Notes under the pieces: generated by a model
The model's input: only the letters and a program-made list of their open reading frames with translations
Database searches by the model: none
What the model was told of the DNA's origin: nothing
Shown: positions 4,507 through 54,818 of the stretch, in pieces
Numbering within the stretch: the stretch's first letter is position 1
Layout: each line of letters opens with the position of its first letter
Source: Candidatus Spongiisociaceae bacterium
GTDB taxonomy: Bacteria > Actinomycetota > Acidimicrobiia > Spongiisociales > Spongiisociaceae
Reading direction: 5' to 3'
Assembly (NCBI GenBank): GCA_965219685.1
Contig: CBDCOH010000002.1
Coordinates: 3,040,001 to 3,104,000 of the forward strand
DNA length: 64,000 bases
Program-made: the position numbers and the translations under genes

Positions 4507-7146
4507 ATGGATCCAAGTACCGCCGTCAGTTCGGCCGTAATCTTACCCCTCCGGAGGATGTGGGAACGCGTCGACCGAACTGCACCCGAGTCTGACGTCG
4601 CCTACTTTTATGACCTTCTTAACTTAGGTGAACTTCTGCTAAAATTGGTTGTCGCTGCGTTGGTCACGTCGATCGATAACCGGGATGGCCACCGATATCT
4701 TTTGGAACGGAGCCTTATTCATGCTAATGGTCTAGGTGTTTGGGTGTCTGCTCTTGATGAAGCCCTTAGCGGGCCATCTCGTACGATGATGAGAAGAGAG
4801 GCATATCCGTACCAGCAGGAAATCACTCAGAAATGGTCCCCGACCGAGCAGGCCTGGCAACGAGATGCTATCGAGTATCTAGACCTTACATGTCGGGAGA
4901 TCGATCGAGATCTACCTCAGCCACCACCCAAGGTCTCCCTTGAGTGGTGGTTTACGACCTTCGTCTTGATCCGCAACCGTACGCGTGGGCACGGATCGAC
5001 TCTACCTGGTAAGTCCGCAGTAGCCGCCGTCCCACTTGCCAAATCACTCAGTATCGTTACAAATAATCTCGCTACCTTACGCATACCTTGTGCAGTGATC
5101 CGTCGCAATCTCTCGGGAAAATATAGGGTCGTCCCATTGACAGCACTCGACGATACCCTTAAGGTATTAAAGCAAAAGACTACCCTCAGTTACCCAGACG
5201 GAGTCTACTTTAGTCTTGGCGATCTGCGCTTGACTCCTGTATGCTACACTGACATTGATCTTAGCGATGTCCACATCGCTAACGGCGACTTTCGCCCGTC
5301 TTCCGAGGGAGCCACTTATGAGGTACTCTCCTATATAACCGATAGTCGGGAGCACATTGATGGTTCTGACTACTTGGAACTTATTCGGCAACGTACCGAT
5401 AGCGAAACTCACGGTACATCTGATTTGGAAGTGATCGGTAAAAGTTTCACTAACCTGCCGCCACAGGCCGACGGATACGTTACACGCACTGTGCTAGAGC
5501 AAGAGCTAACCACCGTACTACTTGATGAGCGGCACCCTATGGTGAGTTTGGTAGGCCGTGGGGGAATAGGCAAGACATCTCTTGCTCTTAAGGTACTCCA
5601 CGAACTGTGTCACACGGACGCATTCGATTTTATTCTCTGGTTTAGTGCGCGTGACATAGATCTATTGTCTGAAGGGCCACGAAGCGTTCGACCACAGGTC
5701 TTAACGTTCACAGAGATTGCTAAAGAGTTCATTGCTCTTCTCCGAGACTATGACGTGGGCGATACGACTCTTGACGCGGACGAGTACCTTACGCGCACCC
5801 TTTTGGGTGAACTGACAGGTTACCGCTATTTGGTGGTTGTTGACAACTTCGAGACTGTGCGCAATCCCAAGGAACTCTTTCGTACACTTGATACCCATGT
5901 GCGTCTACCGAACAAGGTTCTAATAACGGGTCGCCACCGGGATTTCAAGGCAGACTATCCCGTCGAGGTGACCGGAATGGTCCGCTCGGAGTATGACGAG
6001 TTGGTCCGCTCCCTCGCCATTAGGCTCAATATATCATCATTGTTGTCCACCGACTACCGGACGAACTTGTATGAGGAGACGGAAGGGCATCCATATCTGA
6101 TCAAGGTGATACTTGGTGAAGTAGCGACGAACCGTAGAGCTACCAATGTTCAGCGCGTGCTTGCTCATCGAGATCGGATGCTTGATGCACTGTTCGAGCG
6201 GTCCTATGCGACCCTGACACCAGCAGCACAGCGTGTCTTCTTGACACTTTGTAATTGGCGCTCTGTAGTATCACAACTCGAACTAGAAGCTGCTCTCATG
6301 CGACCACAGGCTGACTATCTCGACGTCACGACAGCTGTTGACAGTTTGTCACGATACTCAATGGTGGAGGTTCTCAGGAGCCAATCGGACATCGCATTCT
6401 TACGGGTACCCGACGCTGCAAGGATCTTCGGGAAGAAGAAGCTGAAGGTTAGTCATGTGAAGCCGGTCGTCGATGTTGACACTCGAATCCTCCAGACGCT
6501 AGGCGACGTCCGGACCGGTGACATTCGTCGAGATTTCCATCACAGGCTCACTCGGATTTCTCACAATGTAGCTAAGCGAGCTGCACTGGAAGAAGATGTA
6601 AGCACTTATATGGCTATTCTAGAGTATATTGCAACTATCTACCCGCGCGCTTGGCTCGCCATCGCTGGTCTTCGCTTGGAGAATCCCCAGCTTGGTGACG
6701 CGATAGCTTCCCTGGATGCTGTGGAACGATATCTGCAGGAGGCCCCGGATGATGCAGACGCATGGCGAAGGTTGGCAACCTCAGCCCGGGACTTAGACAT
6801 GCACGATCGTGAAATGAATGCTCTGTACCGTTTAGCCAATCTCCCTGGTGCACCTCTTGAGAGCGTATCACGGGCGGCGGCGTGCCTGAGTCGCCACTGG
6901 GTAAGTGGCTTGACGAACGTTGGCCTTGACGAGAAACGGCTTATGGCAAGGCGGCTAGCCCAGTTGATGAGTTCCAAACGATCCGGGGCGAACGGAACCG
7001 ATTTCTCCCGTCTAGCTTGGCTTCATCTCTACCTTAAGGAGGCACACGAAGCTCGTGCGTGTGTTCAAGAGGGTCTGGAGACTGACCCAGGCAATACACA
7101 CCTGCTTAAGCTAGAGTACCGCCTCAGTGAAAAATCTTGGAGTTGA
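4507..7146 (+). CDS. STAND/NB-ARC NTPase (NLR-like): ~310-aa unknown N-terminal domain, NTPase, TPR-like C-terminus
   Basis: Walker A GRGGIGKT, Walker B LVVVDNFE, sensor LITGR, GHP motif, helical repeats; AGGAG upstream; visibly lower GC than flanks. Confidence 0.85.
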   Translation: MDPSTAVSSAVILPLRRMWERVDRTAPESDVAYFYDLLNLGELLLKLVVAALVTSIDNRDGHRYLLERSLIHANGLGVWVSALDEALSGPSRTMMRREAYPYQQEITQKWSPTEQAWQRDAIEYLDLTCREIDRDLPQPPPKVSLEWWFTTFVLIRNRTRGHGSTLPGKSAVAAVPLAKSLSIVTNNLATLRIPCAVIRRNLSGKYRVVPLTALDDTLKVLKQKTTLSYPDGVYFSLGDLRLTPVCYTDIDLSDVHIANGDFRPSSEGATYEVLSYITDSREHIDGSDYLELIRQRTDSETHGTSDLEVIGKSFTNLPPQADGYVTRTVLEQELTTVLLDERHPMVSLVGRGGIGKTSLALKVLHELCHTDAFDFILWFSARDIDLLSEGPRSVRPQVLTFTEIAKEFIALLRDYDVGDTTLDADEYLTRTLLGELTGYRYLVVVDNFETVRNPKELFRTLDTHVRLPNKVLITGRHRDFKADYPVEVTGMVRSEYDELVRSLAIRLNISSLLSTDYRTNLYEETEGHPYLIKVILGEVATNRRATNVQRVLAHRDRMLDALFERSYATLTPAAQRVFLTLCNWRSVVSQLELEAALMRPQADYLDVTTAVDSLSRYSMVEVLRSQSDIAFLRVPDAARIFGKKKLKVSHVKPVVDVDTRILQTLGDVRTGDIRRDFHHRLTRISHNVAKRAALEEDVSTYMAILEYIATIYPRAWLAIAGLRLENPQLGDAIASLDAVERYLQEAPDDADAWRRLATSARDLDMHDREMNALYRLANLPGAPLESVSRAAACLSRHWVSGLTNVGLDEKRLMARRLAQLMSSKRSGANGTDFSRLAWLHLYLKEAHEARACVQEGLETDPGNTHLLKLEYRLSEKSWS

Positions 7147-7630: not shown

Positions 7631-8056
7631 GCCGGGGGGGTGTCCCTGTCTTGTTGTCAAGCCGCTTTGGGCAGTTTCTCGGGTTGGCGGGGTTGGTAGG
7701 GCGTTTGGGTCTTGAGCATGTGATGGCGATCGAAACCGGGGCGGTTCACACAGGGTGGTGATGCTCCTATGACGCTCCTATATTGTGCAAGTCGGTTGTC
7801 GGGTGTCGATCCATTGTTGGTATCGGGTGGCGAGGTGGTGGTTGTGGTAGAGGCCCCGCTCGAGTCGCGATAGGAGGGTGGGTTGGGTATCGAGGTGGTG
7901 GGCGGCCTGGGTGAGGGTGATCCGGGCTTGGGTTCGACGGTTGCGTAGGTGGGTACCGTCCGGTGTTGGGTGGGGATTGGTCAGCAGTCGGTAGATCTCT
8001 CGGGCGATGTGCCGCTTGAGGCAGCGGATGATCTCTTTTCGTTTCTTTCCCTCGGC

Positions 8057-10002
8057 CCCGAGTTTGGCGGGTGTTTTGTGTTTTGCCTGGTCAGGGGGGA
8101 TTTGGGGTTGGGGTGTTTCCACTACATTGGCGGTGTGGGGGCTGGTGAGGGGGTTTAGGTGATGGTGGCTTTGTCCCAGGTGCGGGTATCTGCTCCGATG
8201 GCGGTGAGGGTTCGGGTTTGTAGGGGGCTGCGGCGGGTGGTGAGATGGATTCGGCGGCCGCTGGTGGTGAGTTGGTGGCGGCGGACACGGTTGAGGTCGC
8301 GCAGGGCTCGGGCGGCGGTGAGGTGCTGGTCTGCGAGGTCGGGGTCACGAACGTCGGCTGCTGCGAGAGCTTGGCTGATGAGGGTCTCGATTAGAGCGGC
8401 GTAGACACAGACCGCGACGTGGCCGCGGACTCGTTGTTCGGTCCAGTGTCTTATGGGGCGGAGCCGTAGGAAGTCTTTGAGGACCCGGAAGCGGGTTTCG
8501 ACTGCTTGCAGTTGGCGGTAGTAGTCCACGACTTGGGCGGTGGGGGCCTGGGTGGGTGTGAGGCTGGTAGCTAGCACGTAGCGGCCAGCGAGGAGCTCTT
8601 CGTATACGTGGGCGTCTTCGTTGTAGTGGTAGAGAAACCGTCCAGGTTCGATCTCGACGTCGAAGAGCCGCCCAGCCCCAACAGTGGCGAGGATACGCTG
8701 CGCGGCTGCCCCGATCTTGGCGGGGTCCTTCAGCCGGCCGGCACGGACGCGGAGCTCCAGCGCCCGCAGTTCGGTTTCGGCGGCGGCGACGATCTGGCCT
8801 GTGCGGGCGGTGTCTCGGCGGGCGCGGGCGTCGGATTCGACCACAACCGCCCGGGTGCCGTCCTCGAGGGTGATATCGGCGGCGCGGCAGCCGCGCTGGG
8901 GGAGGTCGACCCAGACGGTGTCGTCATCAAGAGCGCCAAGGGCTTGTTTGCTGATACGGTCACGACGCAGCTTTGTGGCCAATAGGTGGTCGAACCCGGC
9001 TTCGGCGACCGCCTCCACGTTGGCAGCTGACATCAGGCCCCGGTCGGCGACTACACAGATCCGGCCCACCGCGAACCTCGCCGCTAAGTCGCCCAACACG
9101 GCGGCCAGGGTGGTGGCGTCGCTGGTGTTCCCCGAGAACACATGATGGGCGATCGGGATCCCGTCGGAGGTGCATAGGAGGCCGATCACTATCTGGGGAC
9201 GATCAGCACGATGGTCCCGCGAATACCCGAACGCCCGGGAGGGGAACCGTCCAGAGGACCGTGTCGAACCCTCGAAATATGTGGAAGTCAGGTCGTAGCA
9301 AACCAGCCGCAGGTCCAGGTTCGTCAAGTCGCACAACCGGGCATACAGATGCGTCTCCGTTTGGTCTTTGGAGGCGGCGACCGCGTCCAGAGCCCGGTAA
9401 TACTGATCAAGGGACGGAGCCGACCAGCCGTCGGGCATCACCACATCCACCCCAGCCCACTCGGCCAGCCGCCGCTTCGAGCACGGCGCCACCAGGCGGT
9501 TTGCCACCATCGCGAACACCGCATGCTCCAGAGCCTTCGCGCCCCGCCTCGCGCCGACCTGAGCGAACCACTCCCCGAGGCCCAGCCGCTGCCACACCGA
9601 CCACACCGCCGCTACCGCCCCCACCGCAGGCGCCCCCTCAGCTGCCAACCCGCCGACATCGACACGTTCCCGCACCAGATGACGCTCCAGGGCGGCGACG
9701 ATGCGTTCCAGCTGACCGGACTCGCGCAAAGCGGTCACCTCCCCCAGCCGCAGAAGGGTCCGGTGACCGACCTTCGACCCGTGGCGGAAAGACTCCACCA
9801 AAGACAAATACTCGTACACCTTGTCGCCCCTGCGACGGCGGGTCGTCTTCACGAACATACCCAGAACCATACCACTAACAGCCCACCTATCCAACCATAT
9901 GTCGCCCCTACAAATCCCCACCCAAACCGTGCCCTACACCAAGAAACCCCAGGTCAGAGAACCGACCACCCCCACAAAGCCCCCCAACCCGCCAAACTCG
10001 GG
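8057..10002 (-). mobile_element. IS1634-family element
   Basis: 15-bp TIR CCCGAGTTTGGCGGG / CCCGCCAAACTCGGG; 5-bp TSD TCGGC (8052-8056, 10003-10007). Confidence 0.92.
8155..9858 (-). CDS. IS1634-family DDE transposase
   Basis: YLSLVES, YDLTSTYFEG, GYSRDHR, VADRG, VETRFRVLK, LRPIRHW motifs. Confidence 0.92.
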   Translation of the reverse strand: MFVKTTRRRRGDKVYEYLSLVESFRHGSKVGHRTLLRLGEVTALRESGQLERIVAALERHLVRERVDVGGLAAEGAPAVGAVAAVWSVWQRLGLGEWFAQVGARRGAKALEHAVFAMVANRLVAPCSKRRLAEWAGVDVVMPDGWSAPSLDQYYRALDAVAASKDQTETHLYARLCDLTNLDLRLVCYDLTSTYFEGSTRSSGRFPSRAFGYSRDHRADRPQIVIGLLCTSDGIPIAHHVFSGNTSDATTLAAVLGDLAARFAVGRICVVADRGLMSAANVEAVAEAGFDHLLATKLRRDRISKQALGALDDDTVWVDLPQRGCRAADITLEDGTRAVVVESDARARRDTARTGQIVAAAETELRALELRVRAGRLKDPAKIGAAAQRILATVGAGRLFDVEIEPGRFLYHYNEDAHVYEELLAGRYVLATSLTPTQAPTAQVVDYYRQLQAVETRFRVLKDFLRLRPIRHWTEQRVRGHVAVCVYAALIETLISQALAAADVRDPDLADQHLTAARALRDLNRVRRHQLTTSGRRIHLTTRRSPLQTRTLTAIGADTRTWDKATIT

Positions 10003-11039
10003 TCGGCCTTGCGTCGGGTGACGTAGGCTTTCGTGGCGGGGTCGGTACGCATCCGGTTGGTGGCGATCCGCCATAGCGCGTTGTTGGCTTGGCGGTTGCC
10101 GCCCTGGTTGAGCCGGTGGCGGATGGTCTGTCCGGATGATGCGGGGACGGGGCTGGTGCCGCAGAGGGCAGCGAAGGCTGCCTCGGTGCTCATGCGTTGG
10201 GGGTTGTCGCCCGCGGCTATAAGCAGAGCTGCTGCTGTGTCAGGTCCGACCCCACGAGCTGCCAGAAGCGCCGGGTTTGCCTGGGTGCAGAGACGGCGGA
10301 TCTCCGTGTCGAGGTCGGCGATCTCGGCAGTCAGCGACTGGTATCTGCGGGCCAGGTGCCGCAGGGCACGTTTCGCGTGGGTGGTGGTGGTGTGGTCTGT
10401 GCCGGGTCGGAAAGCGGCGCAGACCCGCACCCGGGCTTTGAGATTCTTGCCTCGGAGCTGGTTCTTTACCGACTCTGGGGCTGTTACCACCAGGGCGTGG
10501 ATCTGGTTAGCGGCCTGCGTGCGGGCTTTGGTGGCGGATCGGCGTACCACCCGCAGCATCCTGATCGACTCCACAGGCCCATCGGCGGTCTTAGGGCGGG
10601 CTGTCGCTTCGCCGTTAAGAGCAGCCCGAGCGGCGGCTTCGGCATCGGTGGAATCGGTCTTGCCCCGGCGGCGGCGTAGCTGGCGGTTGGGACGATTCAC
10701 CTCCACCACCTCGATGCCGACCTCGGTGAGGTGACGGGCCAACCCTGCCCCGTAGCTACCCGTTCCTTCCACCCCGACCCGGATCAGGCAGCCCTGCGAT
10801 CCCATCCAGGCGACCAACCCCCGATACCCGACACCATCCGCCGCGAACGACTCAGACCCCAGCAGCCGGCCTGCGTTATCAACCACCGCCCCAACATGGA
10901 GATCCCGATGCGTGTCCACTCCGCCGACCACAACCCCCTCGGTTCGAACCTTCTCTGCCATGATGCCCTCCCTCCGTGGGCCGCTTAGAATCCAACCCCC
11001 TGGCCCGGGCAGAGCGGCGGACAGAACACTCTGTGAGTA

Positions 11040-11240
11040 TCGGGTGGGTCTCGTTGAGGTTGCCAGGATTGGCGTCAGCGGCGGGGTCGTGACCCGAGAA
11101 CACTCTGACCTCTGTGTCTTTACCGTGATGCGTCCGACACCGCCGCTGCGCCGCCTGGGCGTTCCGTTGCTGGCCTGATCAGAAGCTTGTCCACCGTCCG
11201 GGGTGTGACCCATCACAGTCCTGCCGTCACGGTCTGCGCC
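11040..11240 (+). ncRNA. Predicted bridge RNA of IS110 element B
   Basis: AGAACACTC (11097-11105) equals the left flank. ACCGTGAT (11122-11129) is the reverse complement of the right flank with 1 mismatch. AGAAGC and TCACAG match the element's own ends. Confidence 0.75.
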
Positions 11241-11287
11241 TTTAGGAGGCGATAGCCCAGTTCGCACAAGAAAGAGAGCGTCTTCTT

Positions 11288-12361
11288 ATGTTGGCCACGA
11301 TGGTAGAGCACGTGATCGGAATCGATCCTGACCGGGACCGGGTCACCGCGTCGGTGGTGGACACTGCCACCACCGGAGAGCAGGCATCTGGGGTGTTTGG
11401 CGCCACCCGGGTGGGTTACGACCGTCTGCTGAAATGGGCAGGCACCCACACCCGGGTAGGTGACCGGGTGTGGTCTGTGGAAGGCACCGGCAGCTATGGA
11501 GCTGGCGTGGCCGGCTACCTTTCTGCCCGTGGTGAGTGGGTGGTGGAGTTCGGGGATCCCACCCCGACCCGCGACGGCGCCAAGACCGACGCCCTCGACG
11601 CACGGCGGGCCGCCCGCCAGGTCCTAGGCCGTGGTCGGCTGCCAGCTCCCCGCGCTCGGGGAAACCGCGAAGCGCTGCGAGTGTTGGAAACCACCCGCCG
11701 AGGAGCCCAAACAGCCAGGGTGGCGGCGATCAACGAGTTGAAAGCCCTGGTAGTAACCGCACCGGTTGGTCTGCGGGACCAACTCGGGGGCCTCACCACC
11801 GCTGGCCTGGTCGCCAAGTGCCACAGATTCCGGCTCCGAGGCGGGACCCTCACCGAGCACACCGCCACCAAGACAGCCATGCGATCTGTCGCCCGACGTA
11901 TCAAGACTCTCACCACCGAGATAGCCGAACTAACCGCGCTCATCGCCGAACTCGTCGAAACAGTCGCTCCCCACCTGGTTGACCAGCCCGGAGTCGGACC
12001 CATCACCGCCGCTCAGATCTATGTCGCCTGGTCACACCGGGGCCGCTTCCGTAACGAAGCAGCCTTCGCCCGCCTCGCCGGCGTAGCACCACTCGAGGCG
12101 TCCTCCGGACAAAACAGCCGCCACCGGCTCAACCGCCACGGCGACCGAACCCTCAACCAAGCCCTCCACACCATCGTCATCACCCGCACCCGCACCTGCC
12201 CCAAGACCCAGGCCTACATCGCTAAACGAACCGCCGAAGGCAAAACCCCCCGAGAAGCCCGACGCTGCCTCAAACGCTACATCGCCCGCCACCTCTACCG
12301 GCTCCTAGAGAACCCACCCAACCACAACACCCATACAGGACCCCCCGCCGGCAGCGGCTAA
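11288..12361 (+). CDS. IS110 bridge recombinase (intact)
   Basis: GIDPD, EGTGSYG, AKTDALDA, SSG, GDRTLN, RCLKRYIAR. Confidence 0.93.
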   Translation: MLATMVEHVIGIDPDRDRVTASVVDTATTGEQASGVFGATRVGYDRLLKWAGTHTRVGDRVWSVEGTGSYGAGVAGYLSARGEWVVEFGDPTPTRDGAKTDALDARRAARQVLGRGRLPAPRARGNREALRVLETTRRGAQTARVAAINELKALVVTAPVGLRDQLGGLTTAGLVAKCHRFRLRGGTLTEHTATKTAMRSVARRIKTLTTEIAELTALIAELVETVAPHLVDQPGVGPITAAQIYVAWSHRGRFRNEAAFARLAGVAPLEASSGQNSRHRLNRHGDRTLNQALHTIVITRTRTCPKTQAYIAKRTAEGKTPREARRCLKRYIARHLYRLLENPPNHNTHTGPPAGSG

Positions 12362-12410
12362 CCGAACCTCTCCCCACCCCCAACACCGGATTTGCACAAC
12401 ATAGAAGCAT

Positions 12411-12580
12411 CAAGGTGGTGGAGAACGGACAAAGCTCCTATTAGGTCACATCCGCTCCCCGGGCCTAGGGACCTCCCCCAAGGCCGGGAACAGGCCGACA
12501 GGTCATAGAAAAGGCACAACGGCCAGTTTGTCAATGGGTCAGACCCGCCCCGGCCAAGGGGGTCCTACCAGTATGAGTGG
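12411..12580 (-). ncRNA. Predicted bridge RNA of element A (5' part; the remainder lies at ~10985-11030)
   Basis: Same scaffold as 17215-17400; guides TTGACAAA and TTCTATGAC match A's junctions. Confidence 0.75.
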
Positions 12581-12583
12581 TTG

Positions 12584-13520
12584 TCAAATCGGCGAAGGGG
12601 CCGCCTCGTGAGTTCGGAGCCACCTCTGGTATCGGGTAGCGAGTTGGTGGTTGTGGTCTCGGCCTAGCTCAAGTGCTGAGATGCAGCTGGGGTGGGTGCT
12701 GAGAGCTCGGGCGGCCTGGGTGACGGTGATGCCGCCTTGTTGGCGTCGGGTGCGTAGCCCGGCGCAGTTCGGGGTTGGGGGCGGGTTGGTCAGGAGCCGG
12801 TAGATCTCTCGGGCGATGTGCCGCTTGAGGCAGCGGATGATCTCCCGCTTCTTCTTGCCCTCGGCCTTGCGTCGTGCCACGTAGGCTTTGGTGGCGGCGT
12901 CGTGGCGCATCCGGGTGGTAGCGATTCGCCAGAGGGCGCTGTTGGCTTGGCGGTTGCCTCCGCGGTTGAGACGATGCCGGATGGTCTGGCCTGATGACGC
13001 CTGGACGGGGCTGGTGCCGCACAGCGCAGCGAAGGACTTCTCCGATTTCATACGTCCGGGGTTGTCGCCGGCGGCGACCAGCAGAGCGGCGGCTGTGTCA
13101 GGGCCGATACCTTTGGCGGCTAGGAGAGCAGGGTTGGCCTTCGCGCAGAGGCGACGGATTTGGGCTTCGAGTTGGGTGATTTCTGTGTCGAGGGCCCGGT
13201 ATCGGCGGGCCAGGCGCCGCAGGGCACGCTTCGCATAGGCGGTGGTGGTGTGGTCTGTGCCGGGTCGGAAAGAGGCGCAGACCCGGACCCGGGCTCCGAT
13301 ATCGAGGTCCTTTAGCCGGCGTTTCACACCCTCAGGAGCGGTAACAGCCAGAGAATGGAGCTGGTTGGCAGCCTGGGTGCGGGCCTTGGTAGCGGACCGG
13401 CGGACCACCATCAGCATCCGTATGCACTCGACCGGACCATCACCAGATTTGGGAACGGCGGTAACTTGGCGGCTGGCAGCCGCCCGGGCTGCCGCCTCGG
13501 CGTCTACGCTGTCCGATCTG
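12584..13520 (-). pseudogene. IS110 element C, 5'-truncated recombinase with XRE-like C-terminus; distal right end displaced to 7760-7771
   Basis: Begins at SDSVDAEAAAR; GGNRQAN, RCLKRHIAR; ends GATTTGACAA, with the missing CATAGGAGCATC at 7771-7760. Confidence 0.85.
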
Positions 13521-13530
13521 ATACCTGTAA

Positions 13531-14265
13531 CTATGGCCCGGGTACGCCCGGTCCATAGTGAGCGTCATGGGCCTCGACCGCCGCGGCCTCCGCTGAGAGC
13601 AGCTGCCAGACCCTCCTGAGGACAACGCCGACTAACAGCGGTACGGCCAGGGCGACAAGGGATAACGGCACCAAGCCGCCGGCAATGGCCACGTCGACGC
13701 CCGGAGGCGGGTCCGCCCTGGCTACGACACCGAGCAGGGCGCAGGCCGACATCGCTGCGACCAGCAAAAGCAGGAGGGCGACCGCTTCGTCGATCATCTC
13801 CCGGATGTGGTCGGGGAGGGGTGAGCGGCCTAGAGGCACAAGCACGCCGATTCCTCCGAGGGCGGCCACCGCCCCGGCCACACCGACGGGTACGGCCACG
13901 TTGAGGCGGTCCAAGACCCCGGGGAGGCGCCCTATCTGGACGCTCGCCGAGTTGAGCGCTGCGATGAACCCCTCGTGGACGCCAGCGAGGCCGGACACGG
14001 CGGCGGCGCCCACCATCAGTAGGAGGCCACATGCCCACAAGAGCCCCAGCCACGACCACCAGCCGCCGGGTTGCTCCTGGCGGTACCGCCAGCCGAGTGT
14101 CAGAGCGGTACTCGTTGCGGCCCCGCTCAGCACGAGCCACACCGCCCACCACACTCCTGACGTCTCGGTACCCGCGTACACGAGCACCGCAGCGATCACC
14201 GCAAGCACAGGCGCAAGGTACGGGCGGAACCTCCGGTAGATGCCCCTGACGCGGTCGTAGTCCAT
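13531..14265 (-). CDS. Multi-pass membrane protein, unknown function
   Basis: About six hydrophobic segments after MDYDRVRG. Confidence 0.6.
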   Translation of the reverse strand: MDYDRVRGIYRRFRPYLAPVLAVIAAVLVYAGTETSGVWWAVWLVLSGAATSTALTLGWRYRQEQPGGWWSWLGLLWACGLLLMVGAAAVSGLAGVHEGFIAALNSASVQIGRLPGVLDRLNVAVPVGVAGAVAALGGIGVLVPLGRSPLPDHIREMIDEAVALLLLLVAAMSACALLGVVARADPPPGVDVAIAGGLVPLSLVALAVPLLVGVVLRRVWQLLSAEAAAVEAHDAHYGPGVPGP

Positions 14266-17182: not shown

Positions 17183-17224
17183 GAGGTGATCTCCTCTCCT
17201 GAGGCTTCGCGAAAACACTCATAC

Positions 17225-17405
17225 TTGTAGGGTCCTCCTCGGCTGGGGGCCGGGTCTGACCCACGCGAAAACTGGCGTTTGGTGCCTTTCCCACGATCTG
17301 TCGACCTGGCCCTAGCCGGGAGCCCTGAACCGGGGAGCGGGGTGACCTTATAGGAGCTTCGACTTCTCCACCTTGAGTGTTCTGTCCGCCGCTCTGTCCG
17401 GCTCA
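17225..17405 (+). ncRNA. Predicted bridge RNA of element F
   Basis: Four 8-nt guides match the left flank, right flank, right end and left end, in IS621-like order. Confidence 0.85.
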
Positions 17406-17446
17406 GGGGGACTTGGAATTGTAGGCAGTTGGCGGAAGGTGGGCAC

Positions 17447-18682
17447 ATGGAAGAGCAAGATCGAGCCGATGGCATGGTTGTGGTCGGTGGGGTGGACACG
17501 CATCGGGATACCCATGTTGGGGCGGTGGTCGATAGCGCGGGTCGGCTGTTGGGATCGGCCCAGTTCCGGGCTGATACGGCCGGCTATGGGCAACTTGTCG
17601 CCTGGATGGAGTCGTGGGGTCGGATCAGCCGGGTCGGGGTGGAAGGGACTGGCAGCTACGGTGCCGGCTTGGCCCGTCACCTCACCGGCGCCGGTATCGA
17701 GGTGGTGGAGGTGAACCGTCCCAACCGCCAGCTACGCCGCCGGCGGGGCAAGGACGACCACACCGACGCCGAGGCAGCAGCTCGGGCAGCTCTGAATGGT
17801 GAAGCAACCGCGGTGCCCAAGTCCGGCGACGGGCCGGTCGAGTGGATACGGATGCTGACAGTGACGCGCCGCTCCGCCGTCAAGGCCCGCACCCAGGCCG
17901 CCAACCAACTCCATGCCTTGGTGGTTGGTGCCCCAGAGCCGATAAAAGACCAGGTAAAGGGCATGAAACTCAAAGGCCTGGTTAAGACTTGTGCCCGGTT
18001 CCGACCCAGCGGAGAGTCCTCCCTCAGCTACGCTAAGCAGGCTCTCCGCCGCCTGGCCCGCCGCTACCAGGTCCTCGACACCGAGATCGCAGAACTCGAT
18101 GTCGAGATCCGCCGCCTCTGCGCCAAGGCCAACCCGGCGCTCCTAGCCGCCGACGGCGTCGGCCCCGACACAGTCGCCAAGCTCCTAGTCGCAGCCGGCG
18201 ACAACCCCCAGCGCATGAAATCGGAACGATCCTTCGCTGCGCTGTGCGGTGTCAGCCCTGTGCAGGCGTCATCTGGGCGAAGGGTTCGGCATCGTCTCAG
18301 CCGAGGCGGCAACCGCCAAGCAAACAGCGCCCTGTGGCGGATCGCTACCAACCGGATGCGGACCGACCCCGCCACCCAAGAATACGTCGCCAGACGAGAG
18401 GCTGAGGGCAAAAAGCGAACCGAGATCATCCGCTGCCTCAAGCGGCACATCGCCCGAGAAACCTACCGGCTCCTCACCAACCCGCCACCAACCCCGAACT
18501 GCGCCCGGCTACGCAGCCGACGCCAACAACGCGGAATCACCGTCACCGAGGCCGCCCGAACTCTCGGAACCTACCCCAGCCGCATCTCAGCACTCGAGCT
18601 AGGCCGAGACCACAACCACCAACTCGCTACCCGATACCAGAGGTGGCTCCGAACCCACGAACCGGCCCCATCGCCGATTTGA
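17447..18682 (+). CDS. IS110 bridge recombinase with C-terminal XRE-like HTH
   Basis: GGVDTH, EGTGSYG, KDDHTDA, SSG, GGNRQAN; C-terminus GITVTEAARTLGTYPSRISALELG. Confidence 0.93.
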   Translation: MEEQDRADGMVVVGGVDTHRDTHVGAVVDSAGRLLGSAQFRADTAGYGQLVAWMESWGRISRVGVEGTGSYGAGLARHLTGAGIEVVEVNRPNRQLRRRRGKDDHTDAEAAARAALNGEATAVPKSGDGPVEWIRMLTVTRRSAVKARTQAANQLHALVVGAPEPIKDQVKGMKLKGLVKTCARFRPSGESSLSYAKQALRRLARRYQVLDTEIAELDVEIRRLCAKANPALLAADGVGPDTVAKLLVAAGDNPQRMKSERSFAALCGVSPVQASSGRRVRHRLSRGGNRQANSALWRIATNRMRTDPATQEYVARREAEGKKRTEIIRCLKRHIARETYRLLTNPPPTPNCARLRSRRQQRGITVTEAARTLGTYPSRISALELGRDHNHQLATRYQRWLRTHEPAPSPI

Positions 18683-18731
18683 CAAACATAGGAGCATCGT
18701 GGGGTAGGGCTGCTGTTGTCGGTGCGGGGGC

Positions 18732-18890
18732 TCATGTTACGAGAACTCCTCGGGCTGCGAAGTTGTTGGTGTTGGTGAAGCCGTGAGCGACTCGGCGTAG
18801 GACCTGGAGCAAGTTGTTGATCCCTTCGATGGGTCCGTTGGTTGCTGGTCTGCTGCGGTGGTAGGCGAGGATTCCTTCTCCCCATGCACC
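18732..18890 (-). pseudogene. ISL3 transposase C-terminal fragment
   Basis: TNGPIEGINNL...RRVAHGFTN. Confidence 0.8.
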
Positions 18891-27139: not shown

Positions 27140-28380
<1,241 letters not shown>

Positions 28381-41997: not shown

Positions 41998-43513
41998 TAG
42001 ACACCCCAGGCGGCAAATGTCAAGCTGCGGCTTGGTCGGCAAATGTCAAGCTGCGGCTTGGTCGAGGGTGGTGCGGTGGGCCCAGGTAGTGTGTTCGTCA
42101 TAGGTGGTTCGGTGTTTGAGACAGCCGTGGAGGATACCCACGAGCCGGTTGGCGAGGGCTCGGAGTGCTTGGTGGTGGAGGTCGCCGGCGGCTCGGCGTT
42201 GGTCGTAGAACGCTCGGGCGCCTGGACTTCGGGTTAGGGAACAGAATGCCCATTGGTCGAGGGCGTCGTAGAGGCGCCGGTTGCGGACGTGGCGGGCCAT
42301 AACGGTGTGTTTGCGGCCTGACGCGATGGTGATGGGCGACGTGCCGGCATAGTTCCTGGGTGACTTGGCGCTGGTGTAGCGTTGGGGGTCGTCCCCGGAC
42401 TCTCTGCGAGCGCCCGGGCGCCGAGCACGGTACCGAGTCCTGGCTGGGAGTGGTAGATGACGGCGTCCGGGTGCTCCTCAAAGCGGGTTTCCAGGGTTGC
42501 TTCGAGGTCTGTGAACTGGCGGTTGGTTTCCGCAATGACGCTCACCAGCGCCCCCACAGTGGCCCCGTGTGCGTCGGTGACCCGCCCAGGAGCGGCGAGT
42601 TGGCGGGTGCGGAGCCCTTTTTGTATTCGACGGGCAGCCGTATCGAGGGTGCGGCGTCGGCCGGCGGCGCGGAGCGCGGCCCTAATCTGGGTGACGGTCA
42701 GGCGGGCACCCCGGGTGGGGGTGGTTGCCCGACCCAGCACGGCGACGGTGTCGCGATTAGCCCGCTCATCGAAGGTTTCGAGGGCTGCGGGGTAGTACTC
42801 GCGCAGGGCGTTGCGGATCTGGTTGGTGTGACGCACCCGAGCCCAGATCAGGTTCTGATGCGTCCTAGCCAGGACTTTGATCCCTTCGGCTTCGGGGCTA
42901 TCACCGGCAACCCGACGATGGTTGTGCCGGTCGGTGCGTACTAGGTCGGCTAACACCTTGGCGTCGCCACGGTCTGATTTGGCCCCACCCTGGCTATGAC
43001 GGGTCCCGGTAACGCGAAACTGCCATCGGGTTGATCGCATACACCTGATAACCCGCCCCGACCAGAGCACCGACCCACAAACCACGGTCACACTCGATGC
43101 CCACCACCACCTCGGACGGATCCGATACGTGCTCGCCGATCATCTCATGCAACTGGGCCACACCTGCCAGACCTTCTGGTAGCCGCCGAGCGGCCAACGG
43201 AACTCCGGACTCGTCCATGAGACACACATCATGATGTCCCTCAGCCCAGTCATCACCCACAAAGATCATCCTTGCCTCCTCCATAGACGGATCACTCTCG
43301 AGCTGTGGAGGAAACGCCTGGCGGCGACCTAGCAGATCAGTGCTCTTCGCGGCACGCCACCCCATGAGCGCTACAAGCAGCCCTCACTCACCGGCCGGAG
43401 CACGATCTATCAACAGGAATCAGAGTTCCAGGAGCTTGGAGTACTCACCGGCCAGCCAGCTCAACCACCACACCCTCCCAGATGAACCAGAAGAAGTGGT
43501 GGACCCCCATTAG
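41998..43513 (-). mobile_element. IS110 element D1 (frameshifted recombinase 42046-43269)
   Basis: GDDWAE.HHD, AKSDRGDA, ASG, RNRRL motifs; CTA core at both ends; inverted twin of D2. Confidence 0.9.
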
Positions 43514-44842
43514 GAGCTTTGAGTTCTCCACCACGGTGAGTGTTCTGTCCGCCGCCCCTCAGGTTGGATCGAGAGAAGCCTACTAAGGAGGGAAGTCGCA
43601 TGGTAGACAGCCAGGTCGAAGTGTGTGGTGGGGTGGACACCCATCGGGATACCCATGTTGTGGCGGTGGTCGATACCGCTGGCCGGGTGTTGGGAACCGC
43701 CCCGTTCCCCGCTGATAGGGTCGGATATGAGCAGATGACCAGGTGGTTACGAACACATGGGCAGCTGCTCCGGGTTGGCGTGGAGGGAACCGGCAGCTAC
43801 GGTGCCGGCCTCGCCCGATATCTGACGGAAGCGGGCATAGCCGTGGTTGAGGTGAACCGCCCCAACCGCCAACTACGCCGCCAGAGGGGCGGCAAGTCTG
43901 ACAGCATCGACGCCGAGGCGGCAGCTCGGGCGGCCGCCTCGGGTCAAGCTACCGCAGTTCCCAAATCCGGTGTGGGCCCCGTTGAGTGCATTCGGATGCT
44001 GTTGGTGGCCCGCCGCTCCGCGGTTAAGGCACGCACCCAGGCCGCTAACCAGATCCATGCACTGGTCATAACAGCCCCTGAACACCTAAACGCCAGCTCA
44101 GAGGCCTCAAGATCAAGGCCCGGGTCAGGGTCTGTGCCCGATGGCGTCCCGGTGGGGACCAGACCACGACCGCGTATGCGAAGATGGCTCTGCGCCACCT
44201 CTCCCGCCGATACCAGACCCTCGATGCAGAAATCGCGCAACTCGACGCTGAGATCCGTCGCCTCTGCGCCCAGGCGAACCCTGCTCTCCTAGCCGCCAAA
44301 GGCGTAGGCCCTGACACAGCAGCCGCTCTCCTGGTCGCAGCCGGCGACAACCCCGAACGGATGAAATCAGAGAGGTCCTTCGCGGCGTTATCTGGCACCA
44401 GCCCCGTCCAGGCATCATCCGGCCAAACGGTCCGCAATCGCCTCAACCGGGGCGGCAACCGCAAAGCCAACAACGCGCTATGGCGAATTGCCACCAACCG
44501 GATGCGCACCGACGCCGCCACCAAAGCCTACGTGGCACGACGCAAGGCCGAGGGCAAGAAGAGAAAAGAGATCATCCGCTGCCTCAAGCGGCACATAGCA
44601 CGAGAAATCTACCGGCTCCTGACCAACCCGCCACCAACCCCGAACTGCGCCCGCCTACGGCACCAGCGACAACAAGCTGGCATCACTATCACCCGAGCCG
44701 CCCAACAACTCCGAACCCACCCCAGCCGCATCTCAGTACTCGAACACGGCCGGGACCACAACCACCATCTCGCCACCCGATACCAGAACTGGCTGCACAC
44801 CCACCGACGGCCGACTCCATCGATTTGACAAACATAGGAGCA
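43514..44842 (+). mobile_element. IS110 element E body (recombinase 43600-44828, frameshift ~44090, XRE-like C-terminus)
   Basis: IS110 motifs; right end TTGACAAACATAGGAGCA; left end cut at the donor loop by D. Confidence 0.85.
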
Positions 44843-44854
44843 TCGATGAGCGCC

Positions 44855-48161: not shown

Positions 48162-49652
48162 CTAATGGGGGTCCACCACTTCTTCTGGTTCATCTGGGAG
48201 GGTGTGGTGGTTGAGCTGGCTGGCCGGTGAGTACTCCAAGCTCCTGGAACTCTGATTCCTGTTGATAGATCGTGCTCCGGCCGGTGAGTGAGGGCTGCTT
48301 GTAGCGCTCATGGGGTGGCGTGCCGCGAAGAGCACTGATCTGCTAGGTCGCCGCCAGGCGTTTCCTCCACAGCTCGAGAGTGATCCGTCTATGGAGGAGG
48401 CAAGGATGATCTTTGTGGGTGATGACTGGGCTGAGGGACATCATGATGTGTGTCTCATGGACGAGTCCGGAGTTCCGTTGGCCGCTCGGCGGCTACCAGA
48501 AGGTCTGGCAGGTGTGGCCCAGTTGCATGAGATGATCGGCGAGCACGTATCGGATCCGTCCGAGGTGGTGGTGGGCATCGAGTGTGACCGTGGTTTGTGG
48601 GTCGGTGCTCTGGTCGGGGCGGGTTATCAGGTGTATGCGATCAACCCGATGGCAGTTTCGCGTTACCGGGACCCGTCATAGCCAGGGTGGGGCCAAATCA
48701 GACCGTGGCGACGCCAAGGTGTTAGCCGACCTAGTACGCACCGACCGGCACAACCATCGTCGGGTTGCCGGTGATAGCCCCGAAGCCGAAGGGATCAAAG
48801 TCCTGGCTAGGACGCATCAGAACCTGATCTGGGCTCGGGTGCGTCACACCAACCAGATCCGCAACGCCCTGCGCGAGTACTACCCCGCAGCCCTCGAAAC
48901 CTTCGATGAGCGGGCTAATCGCGACACCGTCGCCGTGCTGGGTCGGGCAACCACCCCCACCCGGGGTGCCCGCCTGACCGTCACCCAGATTAGGGCCGCG
49001 CTCCGCGCCGCCGGCCGACGCCGCACCCTCGATACGGCTGCCCGTCGAATACAAAAAGGGCTCCGCACCCGCCAACTCGCCGCTCCTGGGCGGGTCACCG
49101 ACGCACACGGGGCCACTGTGGGGGCGCTGGTGAGCGTCATTGCGGAAACCAACCGCCAGTTCACAGACCTCGAAGCAACCCTGGAAACCCGCTTTGAGGA
49201 GCACCCGGACGCCGTCATCTACCACTCCCAGCCAGGACTCGGTACCGTGCTCGGCGCCCGGGCGCTCGCAGAGAGTCCGGGGACGACCCCCAACGCTACA
49301 CCAGCGCCAAGTCACCCAGGAACTATGCCGGCACGTCGCCCATCACCATCGCGTCAGGCCGCAAACACACCGTTATGGCCCGCCACGTCCGCAACCGGCG
49401 CCTCTACGACGCCCTCGACCAATGGGCATTCTGTTCCCTAACCCGAAGTCCAGGCGCCCGAGCGTTCTACGACCAACGCCGAGCCGCCGGCGACCTCCAC
49501 CACCAAGCACTCCGAGCCCTCGCCAACCGGCTCGTGGGTATCCTCCACGGCTGTCTCAAACACCGAACCACCTATGACGAACACACTACCTGGGCCCACC
49601 GCACCACCCTCGACCAAGCCGCAGCTTGACATTTGCCCGCCTGGGGTGTCTA
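48162..49652 (+). mobile_element. IS110 element D2 (frameshifted recombinase 48406-49629)
   Basis: Near-identical to D1, including both frameshifts; CTA core. Confidence 0.9.
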
Positions 49653-53131: not shown

Positions 53132-54615
53132 ACACTCATACTTGTAGGGTCCTCCTCGGCTGGGGGCCGGGTCTGACCCACGCGAAAACTGGCGTTTGGT
53201 GCCTTTCCACGATCTGTCGACCTGGCCCTAGCCGGGAGCCCTGGACCGGGGAGCGGGGTGACCTAATAGGAGCCTTCGACTTCTCCACCATGAGTGTTCT
53301 GTCCGCCGCTCTGCCCGGCTCAGGGAACTTGGAATTGTAGGCAGCCGACGGAAGGCGGGCACATGGAAGAGCAAGATCGAGCCGATGGCATGGTTGTGGT
53401 CGGTGGGGTGGACACGCATCGGGATACCCATTGTTGGGGCCGCGGTCGATACCACGGGTCGCCTGTTGGGATCGGCCCAGTTCCAGGCTGATACGGCTGG
53501 CTATGGGCAACTGGTTGCCTGGATGGAGTCGTGGGGTCGGGTCAGCCGGGTCGGGGTGGAAGGGACTGGCAGCTACGGTGCCGGCTTGGCCCGTCACCTC
53601 ACCGGCGCCGGTATCGAGGTGGTGGAAGTGATGCGTCCCAACCGCCAGTTACGCCGCCGGAGAGGCAAGGACGACCACACCGACGCCGAAGCAGCAGCTC
53701 GAGCAGCTCTGAATGGCGAAGCAACCGCGGTGCCCAAGTCCGGTGACGGACCGGTCGAGTGGATACGGATGCTGACCGTAGTTCGCCGCTCCGCCGTCAA
53801 GGCCCGCACCCAGGCCGCCAACCAACTCCATGCCCTGGTGGTTGGTGCCCCAGAACCGGTAAAAGACCAGCTAAAGGACATGAAACTCAAAGGCCTGGTT
53901 AAGACTTGTGCCCGCTTTTCGACCTAGCGGAGAGTCCTCCCTCAGCTACACGAAGCAGGCCCTCCGCTGCCTAGCCCGCCGCTACCAGGTCCTCGACACC
54001 GAGATCGCAGAGCTCGATGTCGAGATCCGCCGTCTCTGCGCCAAGGCCAACCCGGCGCTCCTAGCCGCCAAAGGTGTCGGTCCCGACACAGCCGCCAAGC
54101 TGCTGGTCGCAGCCGGCGACAACCCCCAACGCATGAAATCGGAACGGTCCTTCGCTGCGCTGTGCGGCACCAGCCCCGTCCCCGCATCATCAGGACGCAC
54201 AGTCCGGCATCGTCTCAACCGGGGCGGCAACCGCCAAGCCAACAGCGCCCTGTGGCGGATCGCTACCACCCGGATGCGTACCGACGCCGCCACCAAAGAA
54301 TACGTGACCAGACGCGAGGCTGAAGGCAAGAAGCGAACCGAGATCATCCGCTGCCTCAAGCGGCACATCACCCGAGAGATCTACCGGCTCCTCACCAACC
54401 CACCCCCAACCCCGAACTGCCCCCAACTGCGCAACCGGCGCCAACACCAGGGAATCACCGTCACCCGAGGCCGCCCGAACTTTCGGAACCTACCCCAGCC
54501 GCATCTCAGCACTCGAGCTCGGCCGAGACCACAACCACCAACTCGCTACCCGATACCAGAGGTGGCTCCGAACTCCCGAACCCGGCCCGTCGCCGATTTG
54601 ATAAACATAGGAGCA
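53132..54615 (+). mobile_element. IS110 element G, frameshifted sibling of F
   Basis: Same ends and near-identical guides; inserted in GAGGCTTCGCGAAA|TCGTGGG; frameshifts ~53430, ~53920, ~54470. Confidence 0.9.
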
Positions 54616-54680
54616 TCGTGGGATTTGGGCTGTTCTGGTGGTCGGTGTTGAGGAGCCCTCAACAGGATGAGTGCCGTCTA

Positions 54681-54818
54681 TGAGGTCACATCCGCTCCGG
54701 GCTGGCTGCCCGTACCCCCCGACCGGTGCCCGGCCGACAGATCCGGGGTAAAAGGCACCACAGCCAGTTTCCCGGTGGGTCAGACCGGACCCCGGTCGAG
54801 GTCCCTTAAGTATGAGTG
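54681..54818 (-). ncRNA. Orphan IS110 left end H (target-binding loop only)
   Basis: Same scaffold; guides ACCGGGAAA and CCCCGGAT; truncated at the start of the donor loop. Confidence 0.7.

What the first reader, a model, noticed from the sequence alone, without database searches (positions are those of the whole stretch)
7760..12590. IS110 A is programmed against the right end (-35 box/donor site) of related IS110s
Seen: A's guides read TTGACAAA (12534-27) and TTCTATGAC (12510-02). A sits between GATTTGACAA (12590-81) and CATAGGAGCATC (7771-60), the split right end of element C. Inference: the insertion separates C's -35 box from its donor site, and F, E and G carry the same target. The result is a nest of C containing A, which contains B and IS1634.
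Basis: partly seen in the sequence, partly recalled or inferred. Interest (0 to 1): 0.72.

Follow-up and report, generated by a model that had tools for sequence, protein, structure and literature searches.

The report
IS110 elements that insert into IS110s
A jumping gene that picks its landing site with a small guide RNA has landed exactly where its guides point, inside the end of a related jumping gene, and two other guided elements in this genome do the same to other working parts of that family.

Summary
Element A (window 12579 to 7771, minus strand) is an IS110-family element. It lies between GATTTGACAA and CATAGGAGCATC, the two halves of the right end (RE) of a 5'-truncated sibling, C. 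Rejoined, they give a natural RE variant.

A's left end encodes a bridge-RNA target loop. Its guides, TTGACAAAC and the reverse complement of GTCATAGA, match the flanks at 8 of 9 and 5 of 6 positions. This guide-flank rule holds across the family: 31 of 44 left flanks against 1.2% of controls.

The left guide covers C's -35 box and stop codon. The insertion moves that box 4.8 kb from C's crossover base. Intact REs of E and F match the programmed 14-mer at 13 of 14, and G at 12 of 14.

The pattern is still general:
- B sits in the right-donor-guide DNA of the family at 4 of 4 assembled loci.
- X has separate guide programs for the RE and for the left-donor-guide DNA, and each sits in the matching motif in three genomes.

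This is a new variant of known RNA-guided targeting. Whether it reflects antagonism or simply use of an abundant, harmless repeat is open.

The parts
12580..13516 (-). C: a 5'-truncated IS110 element. It keeps the transposase C-terminal part (ORF 12584-13417) and the inner half of its right end. The -35 box TTGACA lies at 12587-12582 and overlaps the stop codon TGA at 12586-12584.
   Evidence: PF02371 and an HTH tail. 80-81% DNA identity to E, F and G. Sequence read.
7760..7770 (-). Outer half of C's right end, ATAGGAGCATC. Base 7760 is C's own crossover C.
   Evidence: Identical to the last 11 nt of the RE of E, F and G.
7771..12579 (-). A: the whole nested IS110 element. One of the two Cs at 12579 and 7771 is the base shared with the target.
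   Evidence: Left end ACTCATACT... and right end ...TATAGGAGCGT align with the family. Register taken from empty sites.
12526..12534 (-). A's left target guide, TTGACAAAC.
   Evidence: Lies in the hypervariable patch of alignment A1 that equals the left flank in relatives. Matches the flank TTGACAACC at 8 of 9.
12502..12509 (-). A's right target guide, TCTATGAC (reverse complement GTCATAGA). GT matches A's own last two RE bases, and CATAG matches the right flank.
   Evidence: All siblings have AT here and end in ...GCAT, whereas A has GT and ends in ...GCGT.
12412..12578 (-). A's left end, proximal part. It holds the target-binding loop and the left donor guide (TAATAGGAGCTTTG, 12443-12430).
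   Evidence: Alignment and RNAalifold. The donor guide resembles A's RE, TATAGGAGCGTC.
11032..12411 (+). B: an intact IS110 element with a 357-aa transposase at 11288-12361. Left target guide AGAACACTC at 11097-11105, right target guide ACCGTGAT at 11122-11129. It is inserted in the DNA that encodes A's right donor guide.
   Evidence: PF01548 and PF02371. NF033542. A second copy, 99.4% identical, occupies the same site of another family member.
10003..11031 (-). A's left end, distal part, plus the transposase N-terminal 320 codons (ATG at 10961).
   Evidence: Open frame, 74% identical to E's transposase. NF033542 at 185 bits.
8058..10002 (-). IS1634-family element that splits A's transposase. 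TCGGCC is duplicated at 8052-8057 and 10003-10008.
   Evidence: NF033559 at 346 bits. Three other full copies at 88.7% identity. Inverted ends read.
7772..8057 (-). A's transposase C-terminal part (stop at 7780-7778) and A's right end. The -35-like hexamer TTGCAC lies at 7790-7785.
   Evidence: translation. TTGCAC, 17 nt, CATACT in the deduced circle.
18679..18692 (+). Unoccupied A target in the RE of E (E spans 17217-18698, transposase intact at 411 aa).
   Evidence: 13 of 14 match to A's program. ORF status.
44824..44837 (+). Unoccupied A target in the RE of F (F ends at 44844; its left end is cut by X1).
   Evidence: 13 of 14 match. Sequence read.
54598..54611 (+). Unoccupied A target in the RE of G (G spans 53134-54617, transposase broken).
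   Evidence: 12 of 14 match..
42001..43513 (-). X1: a third IS110 lineage (broken ORF). Its left flank is the left-donor-guide DNA of F.
48162..49651 (+). X2: a second X copy. Its right flank is the left-donor-guide DNA of another family left end (49652 to about 49830, minus strand).

Best explanation
A is an IS110-family element that moves by bridge-RNA-guided recombination. Its target-binding loop specifies TTGACAAA-C-ATAGA. That sequence is the inner part of the right end of its own relatives: the transposase stop codon, the -35 box of the circle-junction promoter, and the first bases of the left donor arm.

A inserted at the specified C in the right end of C. Afterwards an IS1634-family element broke A's transposase, and B broke A's donor-binding loop.

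The insertion leaves C's last 11 nt next to the chromosome but moves C's -35 box 4.8 kb away. A circle excised from C would then lack the promoter that normally drives bridge-RNA expression.

A's own right end differs from its target at 5 of 14 positions, including the crossover base (T instead of C), so A cannot hit itself.

Shown:
- the sequence matches;
- the family-wide guide-flank rule;
- the insertion register, from empty sites;
- the promoter geometry.

Inferred:
- that the RNA is made;
- that the promoter works;
- that the host element is disabled.

The most likely selective reason is that conserved, multi-copy and harmless sequence makes a good landing site. Sibling ends are one such sequence, because coding, promoter and donor recognition all constrain them.
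For: - Coordinates and nest.
- Register: empty sites show one shared C for two subfamilies.
- Guides: the variable patches co-vary with the flanks in four specificities in this genome.
- Relatives: 31 of 44 left flanks match at 8 of 9 or better against 1.2% of controls, and 28 of 31 right flanks match at 5 of 6 or better against 2.8%.
- Structure: a stem closing an internal loop holds the two guides, among 40 predicted pairs of which 4 show compensatory change.
- Host RE: C's rejoined RE equals a natural RE variant exactly (10 of 31 rows).
- Specificity: A's 14-mer has 8 genome hits at 2 mismatches or fewer against 2.2 for permuted controls. Five are IS110 REs, and 3 of the 4 single-mismatch hits are the intact REs of e3, E and F.
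- Promoter: a -35 hexamer, 17 nt, then a -10-like hexamer in 9 of 9 deduced circle junctions. The published precedent is that the IS621 circle rebuilds a promoter across the core, and removing the -35 box abolishes recombination in cis (PMC11208160, passages).
- Handshake-type covariation: A's right guide starts with GT and its RE ends in GCGT. All siblings have AT and GCAT.
- Generality, B: 2 of 2 copies here and the only hits in G013 and G007 lie at the right-donor-guide site.
- Generality, X: its guides switch between an RE program and a left-donor-guide program, with matching flanks.
- Assembly: contigs from reads bridge 4 of the 6 junctions of the nest.
Against: - Only one A copy exists, and it is dead.
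- No A relative closer than 77% DNA or 78% protein identity turned up in the genome, in 61 relatives or in 185,579-species genome contigs.
- The exact 18-nt guide string found 26 metagenome stretches, and none is an IS110 left end.
- The left guide mismatches C's RE at the base next to the crossover. The right guide mismatches at its last position.
- There are no RNA data. The donor-binding loop was not recovered by RNAalifold.
- C is 5'-truncated, so no effect of the insertion on C can be read.
- In G002 and G005, 13 of 19 X copies carry programs for non-IS repeats. This favours 'any abundant repeat' over a dedicated anti-IS role.
- A B copy in run X1 has a left flank unlike the family beyond the 9 guide-matched bases.
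Confidence: 0.82

Rival explanations
1. The sibling RE is a near-cognate accident. A's true target is some other sequence, for example a host promoter with TTGACAAAC, and C's RE was hit once off-target.
For: The left guide matches C's RE at only 8 of 9, and there is a single insertion. One of the four single-mismatch genome hits (window 19072) lies in DNA with no detectable IS110 homology upstream. Published work reports frequent off-target insertion (abstract of 10.64898/2026.08.31.748434).
Against: No perfect 14-mer exists in the genome. The best hits are REs of intact siblings, where the left guide matches 9 of 9. The window 19072 site itself resembles the family RE at 17 of 20 positions by my own count on the sequences. 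B and X show the same habit independently.
Confidence: 0.1
2. The nest arose by growth of an occupied IS110 locus through half-match recombination. The resident element's own donor arms drove this, not A's target guides.
For: Preprint 10.64898/2026.08.14.744561 (section 8 read) reports recurrent insertion into occupied IS110 loci, with boundaries matching the host's LD or RD. A's ends are near-identical to the host family's donor ends.
Against: The break in C's RE lies 11 nt inside C's own crossover base. It is exactly the C specified by guides that only A carries; siblings carry other guides. Both flanks fit the guides, not just one.
Confidence: 0.05
3. The arrangement is an assembly artefact in a repeat-rich region of a metagenome-assembled genome.
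For: The region is dense in 72-99% similar repeats. The contig pieces shown did not cover the junctions at 12411 and 12579.
Against: Short-read contigs of X16 and X18 bridge 7771, 10003 and 11031; 8057 is bridged in X15 and X18. The two flanks rejoin into a perfect natural RE, which a random mis-join would not give. A contig of another sample (X1) carries window 7760-7834 exactly.
Confidence: 0.03

Closest known systems
IS621 / IS110-group bridge-RNA recombination (Durrant et al. 2024, PMC11208160; Hiraizumi et al. 2024, PMC11208158)
   Same: - A DEDD plus Tnp recombinase.
- A long non-coding left end upstream of the gene.
- A target loop with left and right guides that read the two flanks.
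- A donor loop that reads the element's own ends.
- A promoter rebuilt across the RE-left-end junction of the circle.
- No inverted repeats.
   Different: - In the A family and B only one base (C) is shared at the two junctions, and the base before it differs between donor (T) and target (A or C). IS621 has a CT core. X does share CT.
- The transposase of the A family carries an extra C-terminal helix-turn-helix tail.
- The natural target is a sibling element's end, not a REP sequence.
[quoted passage not shown] Partridge and Hall 2003 was seen only as a reference-list entry in PMC11187229.
   Same: A member of the same superfamily whose specific target is the end of another mobile element, so that it nests in and probably cripples that element.
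   Different: - There the victim is an unrelated DDE transposon and the site is its inverted repeat.
- Here the victim is a relative using the same RNA-guided chemistry.
- The sites here are its promoter box and donor arm, or the DNA that encodes its donor guides.
REP- and attC-targeting IS110/IS1111 elements: ISPa11, ISPpu9/10, ISKpn4, ISPst6 (PMC11187229 passages; PMC1525189 search listing only)
   Same: The target is a short, conserved, multi-copy and harmless sequence. Other members of the A family here do exactly this: subfamily 1 sits in an ~86-nt repeat unit.
   Different: The repeat used by A, B and part of X is itself an IS110 functional motif.
Expanded IS110 loci (preprint 10.64898/2026.08.14.744561, section 8 read)
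   Same: Repeated insertion into already occupied IS110 loci. The preprint states that IS110 lacks target immunity.
   Different: That work explains the boundaries by half-matches to the resident element's donor arms. Here the incoming element's own target guides specify the site. In my term search of that text, 'nested', 'another IS110' and 'self-target' occur 0 times.

Membership tests
IS110 family (IS110 group, RNA-guided) | Transposase with an N-terminal DEDD domain (PF01548) and a C-terminal PF02371 domain. | tested here: met
   A's N-part has PF01548 (88 bits) and PF02371 (68 bits). B has both. X has both. NF033542 is above its cut-off for A's N-part, B, X and E.
IS110 family (IS110 group, RNA-guided) | No terminal inverted repeats, and no target duplication beyond a short core shared by donor and target. 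| tested here: met
   Occupied and empty sites compared for two subfamilies show one shared C. For X, CT is shared.
IS110 family (IS110 group, RNA-guided) | A long non-coding left end upstream of the gene that folds into a target-binding and a donor-binding loop. | tested here: inconclusive
   The target loop is recovered: a stem closing an internal loop with both guides. The run predicted 40 pairs in all, 4 with compensatory change. The donor loop was not predicted as such and is assigned by sequence match only. There is no Rfam hit at the gathering threshold.
IS110 family (IS110 group, RNA-guided) | Guide segments that match the target flanks and the element's own ends. | tested here: met
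   Left guide against left flank: 31 of 44 at 8 of 9 or better, control 1.2%. Right guide against right flank: 28 of 31 at 5 of 6 or better, control 2.8%. The donor guides resemble the RE and the start of the left end.
IS110 family (IS110 group, RNA-guided) | A promoter formed across the circle junction. | tested here: met
   Met by sequence only: a -35-like hexamer, 17 nt, then a -10-like hexamer in 9 of 9 deduced junctions. Activity was not tested.
IS110 family (IS110 group, RNA-guided) | A circular intermediate and an expressed bridge RNA. | not testable with these tools
   No RNA run holds the stretch. Contigs cannot show circles.
IS1634 family (the element inside A) | An IS1634-type DDE transposase, terminal inverted repeats and a short target duplication. 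| tested here: met
   NF033559 at 346 bits against a cut-off of 100. Inverted ends CCGAGTTTGGCGGG / CCCGCCAAACTCGG and a 6-bp duplication TCGGCC are read.

The most novel reading that the evidence does not exclude
This genome and its relatives host a guild of RNA-guided hyperparasites. Three IS110 lineages have each retargeted their bridge RNA to a different working part of one resident IS110 family:
- A is aimed at the -35 box and left donor arm of the right end.
- X is aimed at the left donor arm, and, with a second guide program, at the DNA encoding the left donor guide.
- B is aimed at the DNA encoding the right donor guide.

Each hit removes the victim's ability to make or use its own bridge RNA. 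The attackers' own ends are mismatched to their guides. On this reading it is selected transposon-against-transposon interference that tracks the victim's sequence, not merely use of a convenient repeat.
Probability: 0.3. Interest if true: 0.8.

Novelty: new variant of a known kind. Interest (0 to 1): 0.62.

Why it matters
Bridge-RNA recombinases are being developed as programmable genome-writing tools, yet little is known about how their guides are retargeted in nature or how elements of this kind interact.

- **Natural retargeting.** The same X left end (mean column identity 84%) carries at least three guide programs in this genome, and each copy sits in the matching sequence.
- **Sibling parts as targets.** The chosen targets can be the promoter box, the donor arm and the donor-guide DNA of a related element. 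Such hits should switch the victim off.
- **What follows.** This gives a testable case of competition or hyperparasitism between RNA-guided transposons. It also explains how IS110 'graveyards' build up in symbiont genomes.
- **A practical caution.** The DNA encoding a bridge RNA's donor guides resembles the element's own ends, so it can itself be a recombination target.

Tried and rejected
- BLAST of A's three pieces against the genome gave only 72-78% relatives.
- In 61 related genomes the best hit was 77%.
- The junction pattern with 1 mismatch, tried on 301 genomes of the order, matched 3 genomes besides the window's own. None is an insertion into an IS110 end.
- Genome contigs searched with A's protein gave 74 loci, best 78%.
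- The exact 18-nt guide string matched 26 metagenome stretches, none an IS110 left end.
- The test therefore could not be run.

**Register.** My first guess was a CA core. It made A's RE 3 nt too long and the target unlike an RE. I rejected it once empty sites were found.

**Site at window 19072.** I suspected an IS110 remnant upstream. tblastn with the E, B and X proteins and Pfam at E up to 1 found nothing.

**Donor loop.** RNAalifold did not return a donor-binding loop.

**Reads.**
- Parts of the stretch without cover in X1 (10082-10937 and 12436-13700) say nothing either way.
- The pieces shown do not cover the junctions at 12411 and 12579.
- The X1 contig that equals 7760-7834 and then diverges hints at a second context for the A-RE/host-RE junction. 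It is 133 nt long and I give it little weight.

**Literature.** Four searches and passages from three papers found no report of IS110 elements aimed at IS110 ends or bridge-RNA DNA. I could not see the supplementary target lists of PMC11208160 and PMC11187229, and they may hold such cases.

**Rfam** at the gathering threshold has no hit on any left end.

Full report
**What is there**

Window 7,760-13,516 is a nest of four insertion sequences.
- Outermost is C, an IS110-family element on the minus strand that has lost its 5' half. Its transposase C-terminal ORF is 12584-13417 (PF02371). It is 80-81% identical in DNA to three fuller relatives in the window: E (17217-18698), F (ending at 44844) and G (53134-54617).
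- C's right end (RE) is split. GATTTGACAAC lies at 12590-12580 and ATAGGAGCATC at 7770-7760.
- Between them lies A (12579 to 7771, minus strand), a sibling of the same family. Its transposase N-part is open and 74% identical to E's.
- A is itself broken twice. An IS1634-family element at 8058-10002 (NF033559, 346 bits; 6-bp duplication TCGGCC) splits its transposase. B, another IS110 element at 11032-12411 on the plus strand, splits its left end.

**Are the 'guides' guides?**

I aligned ten left ends from this genome. The alignment is conserved except for two patches.
- The first is 9 nt after CTGACCCA. It equals the DNA just left of the element in four different specificities: CGCGAAAAC, CCGGGAAAC, TCTCGTAAC and, for A, TTGACAAAC.
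- The second, read as reverse complement, equals the DNA just right of the element.

RNAalifold places both patches on the two sides of an internal loop, closed by a conserved stem and capped by a small hairpin (40 pairs, 4 with compensatory change). This is the layout published for the target-binding loop of IS621 (PMC11208160, passages read).

I then fetched 74 related loci from public genomes and scored all left ends a tolerant pattern could find.
- In 44 distinct element/flank combinations the first patch matches its own left flank at 8 of 9 or better in 31. Pairings with another element's flank do so in 1.2% of 1728.
- The second patch matches its own right flank at 5 of 6 or better in 28 of 31, against 2.8% of control pairings.

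**Register**

Empty copies of the target of two subfamilies exist in the genome. Comparing them with occupied sites shows that a single C is shared between the left and right junctions. The element proper runs from ACTCATACT to GGAGCAT.

In that register A's flanks are TTGACAAC-C on the left and C-ATAGG on the right. The guides read TTGACAAA-C and C-ATAGA. That is 8 of 9 and 5 of 6.

Rejoined, the flanks give TTGACAACCATAGGAGCATC. This is exactly the commonest RE variant among relatives (10 of the 31 rows with an RE). C's RE was therefore an ordinary RE, and A sits at the C its guides name.

The two bases before the shared C in the right guide read GT in A and AT in every sibling. A's RE ends in GCGT and the siblings' in GCAT. 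That fits the handshake-guide idea (abstract of PMC13626964).

**What the target is**

In the RE, TTGACA overlaps the transposase stop codon (TGA at 12586-12584 in C). In the deduced circle junction it lies 17 nt upstream of a -10-like hexamer in the left end. This held in 9 of 9 elements tested: six siblings (E, G, e3, e2, e4, e12), A itself, B and X.

For IS621 the circle is known to rebuild a promoter across the junction, and removing the -35 box abolishes recombination in cis (PMC11208160, passages).

A's left guide covers this box plus two bases. The crossover C lies 11 nt inside C's own crossover base. After insertion, C's box is 4.8 kb from its last 11 nt. That this disables C is inference, and C is truncated anyway.

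**Is the match more than chance, and do E, F and G carry it?**

A's programmed 14-mer has 8 hits in the genome at 2 mismatches or fewer. One hundred permuted 14-mers give a mean of 2.2, sd 2.4, max 13.
- Five of the 8 are IS110 REs: e3, E and F at one mismatch, G and e11 at two.
- The fourth single-mismatch hit is at window 19072. It lies in RE-like sequence, but no IS110 homology could be shown upstream.
- A's own RE differs from the program at 5 of 14 positions, including the crossover base.

No second A copy could be found.
- The genome holds nothing above 78%.
- In 61 relatives the best hit is 77%.
- The junction pattern in 301 genomes of the order returns no other nested case.
- The best protein identity in genome contigs is 78%.
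- The exact guide string in metagenome contigs hits 26 stretches, none an IS110 left end.

A 133-nt contig of another sample (run X1) equals window 7760-7834 exactly, which is A's RE plus the 12 nt of host RE. It then diverges where C ends.

**The wider pattern**

B has two copies in the genome, 99.4% identical, both with intact genes.
- Both lie at the homologous base of two different family members, A and e11.
- That base is in the DNA encoding the right donor guide: target AGAACACT-C-AAGGT or AAAACACT-C-AGGGT against guides AGAACACTC and C-ACGGT.
- B's only hits in five relatives, one each in G013 and G007, are at the same site.
- All four single-mismatch hits of B's program in the genome are the same site in E, F, G and e3.

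A third IS110 lineage, X (1,485 bp, core CT; PF01548 and PF02371), has six copies or fragments here.
- Two carry guides GGATGCTCCT and (reverse complement) CTATGTT. They sit in family REs, one of them in e11.
- Two carry CCAAGCTCCT and CTATCAA. They abut the left-donor-guide DNA of family left ends (X1 and X2 in the window).
- Two carry a third program and sit in non-IS DNA.
- The X left ends are otherwise conserved (mean column identity 84%), and the differences fall in the two guide patches.

An unbiased census of X in two complete relatives gives the following.
- In G002, 12 copies. The 3 with the donor-guide program are all in such sites on both flanks. Of the 2 with the RE program, one has a clear family RE plus its target flank on its left and the other an RE-like left flank. 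The other 7 have a program for a heptamer tandem repeat and sit in it.
- In G005, 7 copies: 1 with the donor-guide program, in such a site, and 6 with another program.

The three perfect genome hits of the RE program are the unoccupied REs of e2, e4 and e12.

A family member in G002 is also inserted in the 3' coding end of another IS110 transposase gene.

**Reading**

The evidence that A, B and X are placed by their own guides is strong. What it means is less certain.

Most X copies in relatives aim at ordinary repeats, and other A-family members aim at an ~86-nt repeat unit. So the simplest account is that these elements drift towards any abundant, conserved, harmless sequence. Sibling ends and guide DNA are such sequences because several functions constrain them.

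The bolder account is selected interference between transposons. It is not excluded: every hit removes a part the victim needs, and the attackers' own ends escape their guides.

**Assembly**

Contigs built from reads of runs X15, X16 and X18 (probably the source sample) bridge the junctions at 7771, 8057, 10003 and 11031. The junctions at 12411 and 12579 were not among the pieces shown.

**Limits**
- There are no RNA data, no circles and no activity test.
- The donor loop is assigned by sequence match only.
- A is a single dead copy.
- Record titles name the relatives as Acidimicrobiia genomes assembled from metagenomes. I did not look further into sources.

Noticed in passing
window 11032-12411; G000:C2:3130169-3131572; L016 1198-1404; L145 (G007:C19 contig end): B, an intact IS110 element, sits at the same base of the right-donor-guide DNA in four different family members. 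This is a second and better replicated case of IS110-in-IS110 targeting.
   Followed up: yes
window 42001-43513 and 48162-49651; G000:C2:3132870-3134354, 3118970-3119132, 130166-131656, 2495987-2497477: X, a third IS110 lineage, has three guide programs. X1 has the expected left flank only and X2 the expected right flank only. They are inverted relative to each other about 5 kb apart, which suggests a rearrangement between them.
   Followed up: partly
window 42364-42447 (+) and 49228-49311 (-): The Rfam family Ms_AS-4 (RF02464, 63.9 bits) matches inside both X copies, antisense to the 3' part of the X transposase gene. That 'sRNA' family may simply be IS110 sequence.
   Followed up: no
window 18490-18680 (E) and 7800-7960 (A): Transposases of the A family carry an extra C-terminal helix-turn-helix region (HTH_3 / HTH_31, E about 1e-5) after the PF02371 domain. 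B and X did not show this in the same scans.
   Followed up: no
window 18699-18790; G000:C2:3147630-3147716, 105059: The target of subfamily 1 (TTCGCGAAAAC|GTGGGG) lies in an ~86-nt repeat unit, present in tandem at C2:3147630-3147716. The unit also holds the target of another family member (e1, guide TCTCGTAAC).
   Followed up: partly
window 54678-54817 (-): H is a solitary 140-nt left-end fragment. It runs from the normal start to ...CTCATAG, the same base where X inserts, and abuts the repeat that carries G. How it arose is unexplained.
   Followed up: no
L009 2694-2995 and L042 3435-3736: Five or six tandem copies of a ~51-nt piece of the left-end start lie upstream of a family element in two related genomes.
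   Followed up: no
L019 (G007:C75): A left end broken after ...TGTAG is followed by ACAC and a fresh left-end start. This gives two left ends in tandem.
   Followed up: no
L131-L137 (G002): Seven X copies in G002 carry guides for, and sit inside, tandem heptamer repeats (CACCTGA)n. A microsatellite is serving as an IS110 target.
   Followed up: partly
L023 3066-3884 and 3698: A family member with guide AAAGAACAC is inserted in the 3' coding end of another IS110-family transposase gene (PF02371, 78.6 bits).
   Followed up: partly
L065 1302-2523: A 75% relative of B carries the guide CGATTTGAC and sits after ACGATTTGAC. Its right flank is the middle of an A-family transposase gene.
   Followed up: no
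window 27418-27534: An ALIL pseudoknot (RF01497, 104 bits) lies at the start of ORF 27460-28380. This is the frameshift signal of an IS3-type element, so yet another IS family is present in the window.
   Followed up: no
window 4507-7146: An 879-aa protein with NB-ARC and TPR matches lies just outside the nest.
   Followed up: no
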